Virus record (IMG/VR): IMGVR_UViG_2703718801_000025
Strand: one strand, 5' to 3'
Length of the DNA: 36,841 nucleotides
Source: a virus
Taxonomy: Duplodnaviria; Heunggongvirae; Uroviricota; Caudoviricetes
Part shown: positions 23,748 to 28,342 of the stretch, piece by piece
How positions within the stretch are numbered: position 1 is the stretch's first letter
Layout: each line of letters opens with the position of its first letter
Notes under the pieces: model-generated
The model's input: only the letters and a program-made list of their open reading frames with translations
Databases searched by the model: none
What the model was told of the DNA's origin: nothing
Translations under genes and position numbers: made by a program

Positions 23748-24778
23748 TGGGAAAGAGTAAGAAGAACCGCGCTGCGGCGACGAATCAGATCCAGCTTAAA
23801 AGTCAAACTACAGCCGAAGCATTCAGCTTCGGCGATCCCGTTCCTGTTCTGGACCGCCGAGAATTACTGGACTATGTGGAATGCGTACAGATGGACCGTT
23901 GGTATGAGCCGCCCGTCAGCTTTGACGGACTGGCGCGCACCTTCCGCGCTGCCGTGCATCACAGTTCCCCGATTGCAGTAAAGTGCAACATTCTGACCAG
24001 TACCTATATCCCTCACCCGCTGCTCAGCCAGCAGGCTTTTTCACGTTTTGTGCAGGACTACCTGGTATTTGGTAACGCCTACCTGGAGAAACACACGAAC
24101 CGCTTCGGTGAAGTTATCGCCCTTGAGCCTGCCCTGGCAAAATATACCCGACGCGGGTTAGACCTAGATACCTACTGGTTTGTGCAATACGGTATGACAA
24201 CCCAGCCGTATCAGTTCACGAAAGGCAGCATTTTTCATCTGATGGAACCGGATATTAATCAGGAGATCTACGGCCTGCCCGGCTATCTTTCTGCCATCCC
24301 ATCCGCTTTGCTCAACGAGTCCGCCACGCTGTTCCGCCGCAAATATTACATTAACGGTAGTCATGCAGGCTTCATCATGTACATGACCGATGCCGCGCAG
24401 AACCAGGAGGATGTGAACAACCTCCGCAATGCGATGAAAAGCGCCAAAGGTCCTGGCAACTTCCGCAATCTGTTTATGTACTCGCCTAACGGCAAAAAAG
24501 ACGGGCTTCAGATTATCCCGTTGTCAGAGGTCGCGGCGAAGGATGAGTTTCTGAATATCAAAAATGTCAGCCGCGATGACATGATGGCTGCGCACCGCGT
24601 GCCGCCGCAAATGATGGGGATTATGCCTAATAATGTTGGGGGGTTTGGGGATGTGGAAAAGGCTAGTAAGGTATTCGTAAGAAACGAATTGATATCAATG
24701 CAAAAACGGATCAAGGAGATTAATGTCTGGTTAGGTACAGATATTATCGCATTTACAGAATATAACTTAGATATGTAA
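23744..24778 (+). CDS. Q: portal protein Q
   Basis: 344-aa ORF (P2 Q is 344 aa) overlapping the P stop. Confidence 0.85.
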   Translation: MMGKSKKNRAAATNQIQLKSQTTAEAFSFGDPVPVLDRRELLDYVECVQMDRWYEPPVSFDGLARTFRAAVHHSSPIAVKCNILTSTYIPHPLLSQQAFSRFVQDYLVFGNAYLEKHTNRFGEVIALEPALAKYTRRGLDLDTYWFVQYGMTTQPYQFTKGSIFHLMEPDINQEIYGLPGYLSAIPSALLNESATLFRRKYYINGSHAGFIMYMTDAAQNQEDVNNLRNAMKSAKGPGNFRNLFMYSPNGKKDGLQIIPLSEVAAKDEFLNIKNVSRDDMMAAHRVPPQMMGIMPNNVGGFGDVEKASKVFVRNELISMQKRIKEINVWLGTDIIAFTEYNLDM

Positions 24779-24827
24779 TCGTCCCACAATACAAGGCAAA
24801 GAGCATACTCTTTGCCTGTAATTACAG

Positions 24828-25163
24828 TTATACTTTGCACCTCTTTGAATAATCTGCAATAATTTCCTCAACACCATCAAAAATAACTTTAAACTTTTCA
24901 AAACTAATTGTTTTACAATTTGCCTTTATAACCTTTGTTGAAAACACATGCTTACCATATTCTGTTTTTGTATCCGTATCATTAGATTTATTAAATGTCT
25001 TTCCATCAAGCACCGTTGATAGTACCGTGCTATCAAATAAATCCTCCATACAAGACTCTTTCCCTCCAGGAAGCAATGGTGTTAATAACAAATAGAGATT
25101 GTCAAATATGTGGGTATACCTTGCCTTACGAATAGTATCAACATCATTTGGACAATTTTTACT
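24828..25163 (-). pseudogene. displaced C-terminal segment of the RT-Toprim gene (-1 frame relative to the RT ORF)
   Basis: This frame is open from 25163 and reads NCPNDVDTIRKARYTHIFDNLYLLLTPLLPGGKESCMEDLFD... with no ATG or RBS of its own. Adding one base in the homopolymer at 25156-25160 joins it to the RT ORF, giving about 585 codons. Confidence 0.6.
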
Positions 25164-26584
25164 TTATCCTTTAAGTGATTTAATAAATCTTTAGGGCCTG
25201 AGTCATTATCAAGAAGCATAATAACAGGGTGCTTTGGTTTAAATTTCTCGAACCTCTTTTTTTGTTCTTGGTATCTTAATATAAATCTTTTGAAGTCTGT
25301 AGCACCGCCAGAAATGTCAAGAAAATAGCTTGTTTTTTCAGTTGCTTTAAAAAAATTAACACGATACTCATTTTTAGAGCTATCATCAGAAGAATTAAAC
25401 AATAAAGGATATGAATTCGCCAATGACTTCAAAGCACACTTTAAATATACACGGTCTGTTTTACCCTCAGTGAGTATTGTTGGCATTTCCATTCCATGAA
25501 AATTTTTATAGTATAGAAAATAACTGTAGGCTTTTTCTCTCGAATTCAATTTTGCAGTGTAATTTAATCCATGATTTACACTTTGGTACTTTTCCAACTG
25601 TCTTGCATTCTTTAGTTTTAAATTATTATATTTATCTATTGAGTCAATGAATCCAAAACGGCCTTCTAATTTAGCACATGTACCTTTTTCAATCTTTCCT
25701 GATTCAGTAACAATAACAAAAGAACCATCTTTATAAAGAGAATGAGCCATGGCACGCGTTACTTTTGCATATTCTTTGCCAACATTCACTTTTTTATTAA
25801 CAGTCAACCCAGTAACATCTTGTCGTGATGTTTTATAACAAACCCTTGTCTTTTTATCATTTATTTTAAAGCCAGCCTTTATAATCTCTTTAATTAAAGT
25901 TGGACTTAGGGTTACAGACTCTCCGCCAACATCAGCAATCTCTTTTGGAAATGTTTTTTTATTAGTTGAAAATGTAAGATCATCAGCATACCGTGAATAA
26001 TTGCATCCGTATTTCTTTGCTAACTTTGATAATCTTATATCAAGAATTCCACTGATTAAGTTACTTATAATTGGAGAGCATGGGCTTCCTTGAGGAAGTC
26101 CATTCTGAAAACATGCAATTTGTGCGATCGTTGTAGCAACAGTATTATTTAATCTAAAATCTCTGTTTGATAAGAAAAAACCTCTAACACGTCCAAAATT
26201 AAAACTATCAAAATAATCCTCAAGATCTATATTTAGTAGTAGCGTTTTACCTCTATGCCGTTCAGCATTCGTAATAATTGACTTTTCTTTTTCAAACCCA
26301 TGAGATAAAACTGGATTAATATTATATTTTTTATAAATTTCTGCACGACATAAATATAAAACATCAGCTAATCTACGTTGAATATCTTTGAGCTTAGTGG
26401 TAGGTGCTGATATGACTCTCGGCGCTCCGTTTTTTTTAGGAATAGTAAATTGTGTATACTGCGTTTCAGCTTTTAAACGATAAATAACATCCGTAAGAAA
26501 AGCAGTTTTAAGATTCAAGATACTAGCCAAATCTTGCCTGTTAGCAGCGTTTTGTAAACGTTCTAAAATTGATAGGGGTGCCAT
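25082..26584 (-). CDS. retron-type reverse transcriptase fused to a Toprim domain; frame ends early through an apparent 1-nt frameshift
   Basis: RT motifs LLNIDLEDYF, NGLPQGSPCSPIISNL and YSRYADDLTF (YADD catalytic box), then Toprim-like TEGKTDRVY and MLLDNDSG. The last 24 codons (IVQMMLILFVRQGIPTYLTISICY) look non-native. Confidence 0.8.
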   Translation of the reverse strand: MAPLSILERLQNAANRQDLASILNLKTAFLTDVIYRLKAETQYTQFTIPKKNGAPRVISAPTTKLKDIQRRLADVLYLCRAEIYKKYNINPVLSHGFEKEKSIITNAERHRGKTLLLNIDLEDYFDSFNFGRVRGFFLSNRDFRLNNTVATTIAQIACFQNGLPQGSPCSPIISNLISGILDIRLSKLAKKYGCNYSRYADDLTFSTNKKTFPKEIADVGGESVTLSPTLIKEIIKAGFKINDKKTRVCYKTSRQDVTGLTVNKKVNVGKEYAKVTRAMAHSLYKDGSFVIVTESGKIEKGTCAKLEGRFGFIDSIDKYNNLKLKNARQLEKYQSVNHGLNYTAKLNSREKAYSYFLYYKNFHGMEMPTILTEGKTDRVYLKCALKSLANSYPLLFNSSDDSSKNEYRVNFFKATEKTSYFLDISGGATDFKRFILRYQEQKKRFEKFKPKHPVIMLLDNDSGPKDLLNHLKDKVKIVQMMLILFVRQGIPTYLTISICY

Positions 26585-26614
26585 ATCTAAAAATCAACCT
26601 TGATTATCAGTTAG

Positions 26615-26755
26615 GGTAGGCACATGTAGGCACTCTTACGCAAAGCATAGGACAGCCCAAGAATGGCTACAAGGATGTCAGAAGGCGAATCCATCTAACA
26701 TTTAGATCACTGATTGCGATACCACAACCAACAAATCTGCCTACATGTGCATGTT
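26615..26755 (-). ncRNA. msr-msd: retron msr/msd non-coding RNA (template for msDNA)
   Basis: 13-bp inverted repeats gcacatgtaggca (26738-26750) and its complement (26620-26632) flank about 105 nt just upstream of the RT start, the a1/a2 arrangement of retrons; internal short hairpins present. Confidence 0.55.
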
Positions 26756-26832
26756 TAAGCTACCATGATCATTTAAGAATGTGAAGAACCGTTAACAGTT
26801 TTGAAAGAGCCAGATCATAGCATTGCGCGCGC

Positions 26833-26851
26833 TCGTATCCCCGCCACGCCT
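26833..26851. other. candidate cos (cohesive-end) site
   Basis: Minus strand reads GGCGTGGCGGGGATACGAG, closely matching the start of the 19-nt P2/186 cohesive end (GGCG[A/T]GGCGGGGAAAGCA) as remembered. Confidence 0.45.
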
Positions 26852-27229
26852 GCCCGCTTTATGCAGTGGTTTTCATGCACATGCATGACATGAGCAAAAG
26901 CCCGCCAGTTCTGGCGGATCTGAGCAAAGACGATCCTCAATCGATCATGCGATTTCATGCAGCATAGTCATGCACTGTCAAAGAAGTAAAAATCCGTATC
27001 TGAATGGCCACTTGAAAAACGGATCATACGGGTTTACAAAGATGAATGTTCGCTGTGAACGGGAAGCGGAAGTTAACTTTCAGATAACATAATCCATATG
27101 CACGAGAACCTCTAAAATAGAATGGGACACCTAAGCGGGGTACTTACAACGATTCTTTCCATATTCACAGTTAACACTCTGTTTGGCGTATTTTTATTCA
27201 AATAGCAAACACCAATAAAAGGAGTTTCC

Positions 27230-27565
27230 ATGAACAATATTCCCCCTATACCACAGTTAGGAATTTATGTCTCAAAAATCGATCCCACCCTACGTATCAC
27301 TGTAACCGATGTTGATATTGTTGATGGTGAGGATGATTCTCCTGATGATGAATTGTTTTATTTAGTCCACTGGATCGAGGGGGAAGATGAAAGTGATATG
27401 ACAGCAATGGGATTTGAGCTAGACCCAGTAGAGTGGCAGGCTTTCGTTGAATCTGAGCAATTAGTGTTTGAGCGTGATCCGTACATGGATTCAATCCCCG
27501 AAAATTCAAACTTGGCAAAGATTCGGGATTTTCTCATGAAGACTAAACAGAATGATCATTCGTAA
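27230..27565 (+). CDS. small highly acidic hypothetical protein
   Basis: 111-aa ORF with a strong RBS (aaaaggag), about 26 Asp/Glu against 7 Lys/Arg; no recognisable family. Confidence 0.5.
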   Translation: MNNIPPIPQLGIYVSKIDPTLRITVTDVDIVDGEDDSPDDELFYLVHWIEGEDESDMTAMGFELDPVEWQAFVESEQLVFERDPYMDSIPENSNLAKIRDFLMKTKQNDHS

Positions 27566-27757
27566 GTGTAAGCATCCATCAGGAAAATGGTTTTGTAAGT
27601 GAATCATCAACTTTTAGAGAGTCTCAGACACTCCCACTTCTGCTTCTGACACAAAGCGGACGATCACTTATCAAAATAACCGCCCACCTTACGCCTTATT
27701 TCACTCATTGCCCAAACTAGCCCCCATCAGAATGAATCCTCCTGGGGGCAACATTTC

Positions 27758-27991
27758 TTAATGCAGCCAGCTGTCGTCCTCCCACACCTTCTGCATAATT
27801 TTCATCACTTGTTTTCTTTCTTCATCCAGTTGCAGTCCGGTTAGTTCCACACCGTTAGAGCTACCTTTGCGAACGCGAATTACCGTTTTGGGATACAGGG
27901 GGCGCAGATTGCGGTAAAGCTCGGATTCAAGGGCGTCCAGGGTAGACTGGCTAATCTTCTGCTCTTTATCGATCATTATTTCAATGCGCAT
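27758..27991 (-). CDS. DinI-like protein
   Basis: Starts MRIEIMIDKEQ and ends IMQKVWEDDSWLH, resembling E. coli DinI (MRIEVTIAK...ETWESADDWF); own SD (gaggtg) 6 nt upstream of the ATG. The track ORF extends to 28063. Confidence 0.65.
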   Translation of the reverse strand: MRIEIMIDKEQKISQSTLDALESELYRNLRPLYPKTVIRVRKGSSNGVELTGLQLDEERKQVMKIMQKVWEDDSWLH

Positions 27992-28001
27992 AAAAGTCAC
28001 C

Positions 28002-28190
28002 TCAGCTGATGACATCCATTGAGCGGTTGTATTCGTGGCTTCTGATTTTTGCCATGAGTTCATCAGTCAATTCAGAAACCCACTGCAGAGCCAGCCCCTT
28101 CTCTTCATCACTACACTCACTAGCCGCTACAAGCTTAAGAAAAAAATCAATGCGCTGGAGCTTCAAAGACTCCAAAAAATAGTCCTGCAT
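28002..28190 (-). CDS. small SOS-controlled hypothetical protein, possibly the N-terminal half of a Tum-like antirepressor
   Basis: 62-aa ORF with a perfect SD (aggagg), directly downstream of a LexA box and translationally coupled to the DinI-like ORF. Confidence 0.5.
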   Translation of the reverse strand: MQDYFLESLKLQRIDFFLKLVAASECSDEEKGLALQWVSELTDELMAKIRSHEYNRSMDVIS

Positions 28191-28232
28191 CTTTCCTCCT
28201 ATGACACCAAAACAATACTGTACACATAACCA

Positions 28233-28248
28233 CTGTTTATATTTACAG
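28233..28248. promoter_or_regulatory. LexA (SOS) box over the promoter of the small-ORF/DinI-like operon
   Basis: CTGTTTATATTTACAG fits CTG-N10-CAG with an AT-rich centre and sits among -35/-10-like hexamers upstream of the 28190 start. Confidence 0.6.
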
Positions 28249-28342
28249 TATATAATAATCTTACTGATGTAAAACGTTTTTTTACGTTCATCGGCCTGAT
28301 ATGCCTGGTATTATTAAGAGCACGAATTGTTAACCCGCGTAA

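What the first reader, a model, noticed from the sequence alone, without database searches (positions are those of the whole stretch)
24828..26755. Retron with RT-Toprim fusion and msr/msd beside cos
The reverse transcriptase has retron-type motifs and a C-terminal Toprim-like region, the architecture of the Ec67 (Eco2-type) retrons, which were reported in a P2-like prophage that also encodes a Dam methylase; this prophage has the same combination. The 13-bp a1/a2 inverted repeats flank about 105 nt upstream of the RT start. The start of the putative msr resembles what I recall of the Eco2 ncRNA, but the central msd part appears different, so this may be a variant with a distinct msDNA.
Basis: partly seen in the sequence, partly recalled or inferred. 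Interest (0 to 1): 0.65.

Follow-up and report, generated by a model that had tools for sequence, protein, structure and literature searches.

The report
Frameshifted Ec67-type retron in a prophage
This is a real retron of the well-studied Ec67/Eco2 (type I-C) anti-phage family, sitting in its known slot next to the cos site of a 186/P2-like prophage, but this copy has a one-base deletion that cuts off the end of its nuclease domain, so it is an ordinary and probably defence-dead family member.

Summary
They are part of a genuine retron ncRNA. Across seven Eco2-like variants every a1/a2 and msr-hairpin pair is kept, and five a1/a2 pairs show compensatory changes. The downstream gene is a type I-C RT-Toprim (PADLOC 2e-189). 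Its intact allele matches the solved Retron Ec67 protein at E=5e-217 and is 56.7% identical to it. The cassette is 31% GC. It lies between cos (26850..26832) and the portal-gene terminator of a 186-like prophage that also encodes a Dam methylase. That slot is the one published for Ec67 and Ec86. The msr resembles Eco2, the msd differs, and the predicted msDNA is 66 nt.

An A6 run is A5 at 25156-25160, so the ORF leaves frame after residue 476. This removes 109 residues of the Toprim domain that Eco2 needs for defence. The same allele occurs in 6 of 14 complete E. coli genomes carrying this variant and on 462 public contigs, so it is a real lineage mutation.

RefSeq already annotates the gene as "retron Ec67 family". 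Verdict: a new member of a known kind, likely still able to make msDNA but not to defend. Interest is low.

The parts
26832..26850 (-). Prophage cos site (19-nt cohesive-end sequence, GGCGTGGCGGGGATACGAG). It marks the upstream edge of the retron slot.
   Evidence: Aligns to the annotated cos (1-19) of phage 186 within a 65-nt, 80% identical block; 14 of 19 cos bases are identical.
26757..26785 (-). Inferred promoter of the msr-msd-RT transcript: -35 TTCACA (26785-26780), 17-nt spacer, extended -10 TGgTAGCTT (26765-26757).
   Evidence: Read directly from the sequence. TGnTAnnnT is conserved at the same distance upstream of a1 in all seven Eco2-like variants. The simple consensus scan missed it because the -10 hexamer matches only 3 of 6. 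Inference, not shown.
26738..26750 (-). a1 inverted repeat (GCACATGTAGGCA).
   Evidence: Perfect 13-nt complement of a2. 13 of 13 pairs are kept in 7 variants, and 5 pairs have compensatory changes.
26737..26737 (-). Predicted branching guanosine, the priming 2'-OH, in a CAGA context.
   Evidence: An invariant G lies immediately 3' of a1 in all 7 variants. It is homologous to rG15 of Eco2, and the CAGA context is reported for Ec67. Inferred by homology.
26710..26731 (-). msr stem-loop (8 bp, 6-nt loop), the element the RT recognises.
   Evidence: Present in the MFE fold. All 8 pairs are kept in 7 variants, 3 of them with one-sided G-C/G-U or U-G/U-A changes. Corresponds to the Eco2 RNA stem-loop rG20-rU42.
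26634..26699 (-). msd template region. The predicted msDNA is 66 nt (5'-TCTTACGCAAAGCATAGGACAGCCCAAGAATGGCTACAAGGATGTCAGAAGGCGAATCCATCTAAC-3').
   Evidence: Mapped by homology to the Eco2 start (dT1) and stop (G52:dC67) positions. The same mapping returns 67 nt for canonical Eco2, matching the published length. A conserved CGC/GCG pairing brackets the variable centre. The length is a prediction.
26620..26632 (-). a2 inverted repeat (TGCCTACATGTGC).
25082..26584 (-). RT-Toprim gene, upstream part: a 500-codon ORF. Residues 1-476 are in frame and carry the RT domain with NAERH 106, YADD 199 and VTG 257, plus Toprim TEGKTD 372 and DND 459. They are followed by 24 out-of-frame residues and a stop.
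   Evidence: PADLOC RT-Toprim_I-C 2.1e-189, covering profile positions 7-455 of 568. Pfam RVT_1. Identical to the intact allele up to residue 476.
25156..25160 (-). Frameshift site: an A5 run where intact alleles have A6.
   Evidence: Alignment with E. coli Ec1117. Intact 585-aa translation. The frameshift allele is shared by 6 complete genomes and its exact truncated product is found on 462 contigs.
24828..25091 (-). Orphaned 3' part of the RT-Toprim gene. It corresponds to residues ~499-585 of the intact protein, including MEDLF 513-517 and YGKH 543-546. It is no longer in frame with the RT.
   Evidence: PADLOC RT-Toprim_I-C 4.5e-24, covering profile positions 473-555 of 568. It differs from the intact allele by one substitution only.
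24794..24817 (-). Terminator hairpin (10-bp stem) between the retron and the converging portal gene. It marks the downstream edge of the retron slot.
   Evidence: Terminator scan. It is positionally equivalent to tW of phage 186. Flank identity to other 186-like prophages rises to 90% just beyond it.

Best explanation
The region is a type I-C (Ec67/Eco2-family) retron cassette carried as cargo of a 186/P2-like prophage. The prophage is integrated next to rcdA/ybjK in E. coli, and the cassette lies between cos and the portal-gene terminator.

How an intact copy works:
- A promoter just upstream of a1 would transcribe msr-msd-RT as one RNA (inferred).
- The a1/a2 stem and the msr hairpin position the RT. 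The RT primes from the 2'-OH of the G at 26737 and copies the msd into a branched msDNA of about 66 nt (inferred by homology).
- In an intact allele the msDNA would assemble RT-Toprim into a caged, inactive complex.
- A phage nuclease such as DenB degrades the msDNA. That frees the Toprim RNase, which cuts tRNAs and shuts down translation. This mechanism is established for Eco2 and inferred here.

What differs in this window:
- A 1-nt deletion (A6 to A5 at 25156-25160) truncates the protein after residue 476.
- The truncation removes the last 109 residues of the Toprim domain, including the metal-B ligands and the catalytic lysine region.
- This copy is therefore most likely unable to defend. 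Its RT domain and ncRNA are intact, so it may still make msDNA.
- The frameshift is a real, recent, clonally inherited mutation in a prophage that shows other inactivating lesions.
For: Identity of the gene:
- The top four PADLOC hits for the 500-aa ORF, and all four hits for the 87-aa ORF, are RT-Toprim_I-C. The two ORFs cover consecutive parts of one profile.
- The intact allele matches the PDB 'Retron Ec67 protein' over its full length at E=5e-217 and is 56.7% identical to it.
- NAxxH, YADD and VTG, plus Toprim E/D and DxD residues, are present upstream of the frameshift.

The ncRNA:
- The 13-bp a1/a2 repeat is confirmed and the region folds with z = -5.65.
- All pairs are kept in 7 variants, with 5 compensatory pairs, against 17-48% paired in the slid controls.
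- The homology mapping reproduces the published 67-nt msDNA for Eco2 and gives 66 nt here.

Location:
- cos is identified and the terminator is identified.
- The cassette is 31% GC against 52-58% in the flanks.
- The slot is the one published for Ec67 and Ec86. Dam is present in the same prophage.

The frameshift:
- It is shown. Six of 14 complete genomes share it, and the exact truncated product is on 462 contigs from several sources.
- The lost region carries residues whose alanine substitution abolishes Eco2 defence.
- An Eco2 variant with a catalytically dead Toprim still makes msDNA and trimerises.

Prophage decay:
- cI and the tape-measure gene are annotated as pseudogenes in a 99.99% identical record.
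- In the window only the C-terminal domain of cI is left.
Against: - No experiment here shows msDNA or the loss of defence.
- A truncated Toprim may misfold and destabilise the whole protein, so msDNA production is uncertain.
- A -1 slip of tRNA-Lys on A_AAA_A would restore the exact wild-type reading frame, so a trace of full-length protein cannot be excluded.
- The serine reported as a metal-B ligand in Eco2 (S513) is Cys in this variant and Ala in another natural variant. Residue-level inferences from Eco2 therefore do not transfer perfectly.
- The msDNA 3' end, and so its length, is assigned by homology only.
Confidence: 0.85

Rival explanations
1. The retron is fully functional. Either the A5 run is an assembly or homopolymer error, or the frame is efficiently restored by programmed -1 ribosomal frameshifting or transcriptional slippage at the A-run.
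For: - The lesion is in a homopolymer.
- A -1 slip on A_AAA_A would give exactly the wild-type sequence V-K-N-C-P (sequence).
- The orphaned 3' part has only one substitution relative to intact alleles.
- The allele is widespread.
Against: - The same A5 allele is present in 6 complete genomes from three countries, on a haplotype 100% identical over 2,121 nt. The 8 genomes on other haplotypes all have A6.
- The exact 500-aa product is called on 462 contigs from NCBI, ENA and Logan assemblies. That is not expected from random homopolymer errors.
- A5 is too short for efficient transcriptional slippage, and the site is not a canonical X_XXY_YYZ heptamer (established knowledge). Intact alleles have no need for recoding.
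- The same prophage carries other pseudogenes.
Confidence: 0.07
2. The locus is completely dead. The truncated RT-Toprim is unstable, so neither msDNA nor defence is produced, and the cassette is simply a decaying pseudogene.
For: - 109 residues of a compact Toprim fold are missing and are replaced by 24 unrelated residues.
- Several Eco2 point mutants near the RT/Toprim interface could not be recovered, suggesting fragility.
- Other prophage genes are pseudogenes.
Against: - The RT domain, thumb, ncRNA and inferred promoter are all unchanged relative to intact alleles. The ncRNA is 100% identical over 139 nt, and residues 1-476 are identical.
- Toprim catalysis is not needed for msDNA synthesis in Eco2.
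Confidence: 0.3
3. The RT is not a retron RT but belongs to another RT class (group II intron, DRT/UG, Abi, or retron-related type XI/XII fusions), and the inverted repeat is coincidental.
For: - PADLOC also reports RT-TIR_XII (8e-102) and RT-Protease_XI (3e-98) over the RT part.
- Rfam has no match for the ncRNA.
Against: - The top four PADLOC hits are RT-Toprim_I-C, with much higher scores and coverage into the Toprim part. The 87-aa ORF matches only I-C profiles.
- The intact allele matches the Ec67 protein in the PDB over its full length.
- The a1/a2 stem covaries and the branching G is invariant.
Confidence: 0.01

Closest known systems
Retron-Eco2 (Ec67), type I-C1; structures PDB 9LM3, 9I2F/9I2G/9S1F
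   Same: - Single-gene RT-Toprim architecture downstream of msr-msd, with a full-length protein match (E=5e-217).
- 13-bp a1/a2, branching G in CAGA, and a near-identical msr hairpin.
- Same insertion slot between cos and the packaging-gene terminator of a 186-like prophage that also carries Dam.
- Predicted msDNA of similar length, 66 nt against 67 nt.
   Different: - Only 56.7% protein identity for the intact allele.
- The msd and msDNA sequence diverge from about 26670 onward.
- Cys replaces the Eco2 S513.
- In this window the Toprim domain is truncated after residue 476 by a frameshift.
Other Ec67-family retron variants in E. coli, for example the dhaR-adjacent variant common in ST131-type genomes (L005), the variant in L003, and the 186-like prophage variant in GF4-3 (L004)
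   Same: - Same architecture and a conserved msr.
- RefSeq gives all of them the same product name.
- L004 sits in the same cos/portal slot.
   Different: - 53-55% protein identity to the intact allele and 75-80% ncRNA identity with different msd centres.
- These variants are far more frequent. 541 of 5,426 genomes carry some Eco2-like ncRNA, against 14 for this variant.
- Some are chromosomal islands rather than prophage cargo.
Retron-Eco1 (Ec86)
   Same: It occupies the same cos-terminator slot of a 186-related prophage and its RT domain is homologous (E=6e-33).
   Different: The RT is ~320-350 aa in the solved chains and has no fused Toprim. Its ncRNA and msDNA are unrelated (from memory, not compared here).
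OLD-family / Gabija / PARIS Toprim nucleases
   Same: The effector fold and the two-metal active-site logic of the Toprim domain, as reported for Eco2.
   Different: Here the domain is fused to a retron RT and regulated by msDNA. In this copy it lacks its C-terminal third.

Membership tests
Retron (general) | RT of the retron clade with YADD catalytic motif and retron-specific NAxxH and VTG motifs | tested here: met
   NAERH at 106, YADD at 199 and VTG at 257. RVT_1 3.5e-27. PADLOC retron RT profiles. Matches to solved retron RTs Ec67, Ec86, Ec83 and Ec78.
Retron (general) | ncRNA immediately upstream on the same strand, closed by a1/a2 inverted repeats, with a conserved G directly 3' of a1 | tested here: met
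   13-bp perfect repeat with 105 nt between the arms. 13 of 13 pairs kept in 7 variants, 5 of them compensatory. Invariant G at 26737.
Retron (general) | Production of branched RNA-linked msDNA | not testable with these tools
   Only predicted by homology to Eco2: 66 nt.
Retron type I-C (Ec67/Eco2 family) | Single protein with an N-terminal RT fused to a C-terminal Toprim (OLD-like) nuclease, and no separate effector gene | tested here: inconclusive
   The architecture is clearly ancestral. Two ORFs cover one RT-Toprim_I-C profile, sister genomes have one 585-aa ORF, and no other ORF lies between cos and the terminator. In this window the fusion is interrupted by a frameshift after residue 476, so the encoded protein lacks a complete Toprim domain.
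Retron type I-C (Ec67/Eco2 family) | Complete Toprim active site (Eco2 E374, D378, D460/D462, S513, E515, catalytic Lys) | tested here: not met
   E373, D377, D459 and D461 are retained. Everything from residue 477 on, including MEDLF 513-517 and GK 544-545, is out of frame. The site is met in the intact allele, except that Ser is replaced by Cys at the S513 position.
Retron type I-C (Ec67/Eco2 family) | Eco2-like msr: a single RNA stem-loop after a short single-stranded spacer 3' of the branching G | tested here: met
   An 8-bp hairpin at 26731-26710 is conserved in all 7 variants. It matches the Eco2 rG20-rU42 stem-loop.
Retron type I-C (Ec67/Eco2 family) | Anti-phage defence triggered by phage nucleases (DenB/A1) through msDNA degradation | not testable with these tools
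   Known for Eco2. Predicted to be lost for this allele.
186/P2-like prophage retron slot (Dodd & Egan 1996) | Cassette replaces the DNA between cos and the terminator of the portal/packaging gene | tested here: met
   cos lies at 26850..26832, the terminator at 24817..24794 and the portal gene ends at 24778. In phage 186 the same interval is about 145 bp. GC drops to 31% in the cassette. Literature statement.

The most novel reading that the evidence does not exclude
The widespread A5 frameshift allele (462 contigs) is not mere decay but a maintained state. One version: the truncated RT still makes msDNA, and occasional -1 slippage of tRNA-Lys on A_AAA_A produces a small, tightly dosed amount of full-length toxic RT-Toprim. 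Another version: the msDNA-producing, nuclease-less protein serves some other role for the host or prophage, for example as a decoy for phage nucleases.
Probability: 0.06. Interest if true: 0.45.

Novelty: new member of a known kind. Interest (0 to 1): 0.2.

Why it matters
The scientific value is modest.

- It documents a further natural Eco2-like variant. The RT-Toprim is 56.7% identical to Eco2, the msd is distinct, and the predicted msDNA is 66 nt.
- Because the msDNA is the sensor that phage nucleases cut in Eco2, natural msd variants with a conserved msr could help define what the sensor tolerates. They could also serve as alternative scaffolds for retron engineering.
- The natural A5/A6 allele pair is a ready-made isogenic test of whether the C-terminal third of the Toprim domain is needed for msDNA synthesis, for complex assembly and for defence.
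- For annotation, the two CDSs called here ('retron Ec67 family...' plus 'hypothetical protein') should be one pseudogene.
- The ncRNA is unannotated in every genome record examined.

Tried and rejected
- Rfam (E up to 1) over 24000-28500 gave no match, so no curated RNA family covers this ncRNA.
- The single genome-contig scan with an alignment of four E. coli RT-Toprims returned only five distant loci, 33-41% identical, mostly from Firmicutes. I did not use them for the ncRNA analysis.
- A 15-mer msr pattern scan of viral contigs returned 120 stretches. Only 11 were real Eco2-like ncRNAs, filtered by blastn, and the rest were chance matches, including L080.
- The consensus promoter scan found nothing upstream of msr. 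I inferred the promoter by eye and from its conservation instead.
- DNA folding of the predicted msDNAs gives only weak structures (-3 to -7.5 kcal/mol) in all variants, so no claim is made about a long msd hairpin.
- I skipped structure prediction and the large protein-homology searches. A solved structure at 57% identity and the RefSeq annotation already settle the family, and only window-encoded sequences could have been submitted.
- I considered non-retron RT classes, the type XI/XII retron fusions and sequencing error, and rejected them (see the rival explanations).
- One inconsistency noted: the 'catalytic lysine K562' quoted for Eco2 in PMC12405507 does not fall on a lysine when I count along the PDB chain. 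The conserved G-K is at 545/546. I therefore refer only to 'the catalytic lysine region', which lies downstream of the frameshift under either numbering.
Full report
**Observation**

On the minus strand, a perfect 13-nt inverted repeat lies at 26750..26738 (a1, GCACATGTAGGCA) and 26632..26620 (a2), with 105 nt between the arms. An ATG at 26584 opens a 500-codon ORF (25082-26584). An 87-codon ORF follows at 24828-25091. However, the interval 24828-26584 is not one ORF.

**The protein**

- The 500-aa ORF has a Pfam RVT_1 domain (3.5e-27).
- Its four best PADLOC hits are all RT-Toprim_I-C. The top hit scores 2.1e-189 and covers profile positions 7-455 of 568.
- The 87-aa ORF matches only the same profiles, at positions 473-555 (4.5e-24). 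The two ORFs are therefore consecutive pieces of one gene.
- In E. coli Ec1117 the same locus is a single 585-codon ORF, annotated 'retron Ec67 family RNA-directed DNA polymerase/endonuclease'.
- Alignment shows one difference that matters: GTAAAAAATTGT (A6) in Ec1117 against GTAAAAATTGT (A5) in the window, at 25156-25160.
- The window product is identical to the intact allele up to residue 476. It then reads 24 out-of-frame residues and stops.
- The intact allele matches the solved 'Retron Ec67 protein' (9LM3, 9I2F) over residues 4-579 at E=5e-217. It is 56.7% identical to the canonical Ec67 protein, whose N-terminus I checked against the PDB chain.
- The retron hallmarks NAERH (106), YADD (199) and VTG (257) lie upstream of the frameshift. 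So do the first Toprim motifs, TEGKTD (372) and DND (459). MEDLF (513) and YGKH (543) lie downstream and are lost.

**Is the frameshift real?**

- Fourteen of 5,426 complete E. coli genomes carry this cassette at 99% identity or more.
- Six of them, from cattle and human isolates in Germany, the USA and Japan, are 100% identical to the window over 2,121 nt. They are annotated with the same split (RT plus 'hypothetical protein').
- The other eight match over 2,122 nt or end-trimmed equivalents, and are annotated with a single CDS.
- The exact 500-aa product occurs on 462 contigs from NCBI, ENA and Logan assemblies. One intact 585-aa allele occurs on 510 contigs.
- This is a clonally inherited mutation, not a homopolymer read error.
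- It looks recent, because the orphaned 3' part differs from the intact allele by a single substitution.
- The window is 99.99% identical to the prophage of strain 2014C-3061. In that record cI and the tape-measure gene are also annotated as pseudogenes.
- In the window only the C-terminal domain of cI is left as an ORF.

**The ncRNA**

- The 141-nt region folds with the a1/a2 stem closing a structure that contains an msr hairpin (-54.8 kcal/mol, z = -5.65).
- From E. coli genomes and viral contigs I collected six other distinct Eco2-like ncRNAs. One of them lies next to the canonical Ec67 RT.
- In the seven-way alignment all 13 a1/a2 pairs and all 8 msr-hairpin pairs are kept in every variant. 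Five a1/a2 pairs show changes on both sides.
- Sliding the partners by 1-3 columns drops pairing to 17-48% and removes all compensatory changes.
- The G directly 3' of a1 (26737) is invariant and sits in CAGA. That is the context reported for the Ec67 branching G, and it is homologous to rG15 of Eco2.
- I placed the msDNA start at the A preceding the G that abuts a2, and the stop at the G homologous to Eco2 G52. This mapping gives 67 nt for canonical Eco2, which is the published length. It gives 66 nt for the window.
- The msr half is well conserved and the msd centre is not. Against a canonical Eco2 locus, identity is about 91% from 27300 through cos and msr down to about 26670. It then falls to about 70%.
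- Rfam has no family that matches.
- A TGnTAnnnT extended -10 is conserved in all seven variants just upstream of a1. In the window it is preceded by TTCACA at a 17-nt spacing. I infer that this is the retron promoter.

**Context**

- The 19-nt cos of phage 186 aligns to 26850..26832.
- A 10-bp terminator hairpin lies at 24817..24794.
- The converging portal gene ends at 24778, with the large terminase subunit gene upstream of it.
- On the other side of cos lie a DinI homologue, the gpA replication gene and a D12-class Dam methylase.
- The RT gene is 31% GC against 52-58% in the flanks.
- Flank identity to another 186-like prophage, which carries a different Ec67-family retron, jumps to 90% just beyond the terminator.
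- This is the slot in which Ec67 and Ec86 were shown to replace about 180 bp between cos and a packaging-gene terminator of a 186-related prophage (Dodd & Egan 1996, as cited in PMC6868368).
- Type I-C retrons make up about 11% of retrons and are often prophage-borne (PMC12916289).

**Mechanism**

For Eco2 the mechanism is now known:
- The RT makes a branched msDNA.
- Three RT-Toprim:msDNA units form a trimer in which the msDNA cages the Toprim domains.
- The phage nuclease DenB starts msDNA decay. The freed Toprim then acts as an RNase that cuts tRNAs and stops translation.
- Both active sites are required for defence. A catalytically dead Toprim variant still makes msDNA and trimerises.
- Alanine substitutions of E374, D378, D460/D462, S513, E515 and the catalytic lysine abolish defence.

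By homology, the intact allele of this variant should work the same way, with its own msDNA sequence as the sensor. That step is an inference.

The window allele lacks residues 477-585. I therefore predict no Toprim RNase activity and no defence. The RT and ncRNA are untouched, so msDNA synthesis is possibly retained, provided the truncated protein is stable. That point is uncertain.

One caveat is that a -1 slip of tRNA-Lys on A_AAA_A would recreate exactly the wild-type reading (V-K-N-C-P). The site is not a canonical slippery heptamer, and A5 is too short for efficient transcriptional slippage. I give a functional 'leaky' state only a small probability.

**Comparison and novelty**

- This is a member of the Ec67/Eco2 type I-C family by every sequence-level criterion. 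The exception in this copy is a complete Toprim domain.
- It is already recognised by RefSeq annotation.
- Eco2-like ncRNAs occur in 541 of 5,426 complete E. coli genomes. This particular variant occurs in 14.
- I found no paper on this specific variant, but I ran only two literature searches and neither was aimed at it. It may also be listed in large retron censuses, whose supplements I did not search.
- I rate it a new member of a known kind, of low interest. The most useful points are the natural A5/A6 allele pair and the unannotated ncRNA.

Noticed in passing
window 34029-35705 (+): A 558-aa DUF4041/T5orf172 (MUG113) protein lies between the integrase and the cI remnant. It matches the PADLOC defence family PD-Lambda-1 (7e-120) and appears intact. 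It is a second defence cargo in the same prophage.
   Followed up: partly
window 33721-34008 (+) and 4744-7821 (-): The prophage looks defective. Only the C-terminal domain of the CI repressor is left as an ORF. The tape-measure gene is annotated with an internal stop in the 99.99% identical record NZ_CP027548.1, and the window ORF there is 911 aa, starting at 7479 rather than about 7821.
   Followed up: partly
window 27230-27565 (+): A 111-aa, very acidic protein of unknown function (phrog_17127, no Pfam or PADLOC match) lies just outside cos, on the strand opposite to the retron. This is where phage 186 has orf97. The first ~70 nt of the ORF (27230-27300) fall inside a block about 91% identical to the locus next to canonical Eco2 (L030); the comparison did not extend beyond 27300. 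Its composition suggests a possible DNA mimic or anti-defence protein, which is pure speculation.
   Followed up: partly
window ~31863-31873: Relative to strain 2014C-3061, the window lacks about 86 bp inside the DUF2732-family gene region, with an 11-nt overlap of the two blast segments. This suggests a copy-number difference in a short repeat.
   Followed up: no
window 288-2620: The left end of the window is host chromosome (ybjM and an Asp-Al_Ex/TrkA_C permease, ybjL-like), and the integrase ORF ends at the last base of the window (36841). By homology to strain 2014C-3061, the prophage sits next to rcdA (ybjK). From memory, this is near the ~19-min position reported for the original Ec67 prophage.
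   Followed up: partly
intact allele residue 512 (window 25091-24828 ORF, 'ESCMEDLF'): The Eco2 residue S513 is reported as a metal-B ligand whose alanine substitution abolishes defence. It is Cys in this variant and naturally Ala in the GF4-3 variant (L004). Also, the 'K562' quoted for Eco2 does not fall on a lysine in the PDB chain by my count.
   Followed up: no
L003, L005 and 541 E. coli genomes: None of the E. coli genome records inspected annotates the Eco2-like ncRNA; the features under the match are 'none'. The commonest variant, about 76% identical to the window ncRNA, lies next to dhaR and an ABC-three-component system rather than in a prophage.
   Followed up: partly
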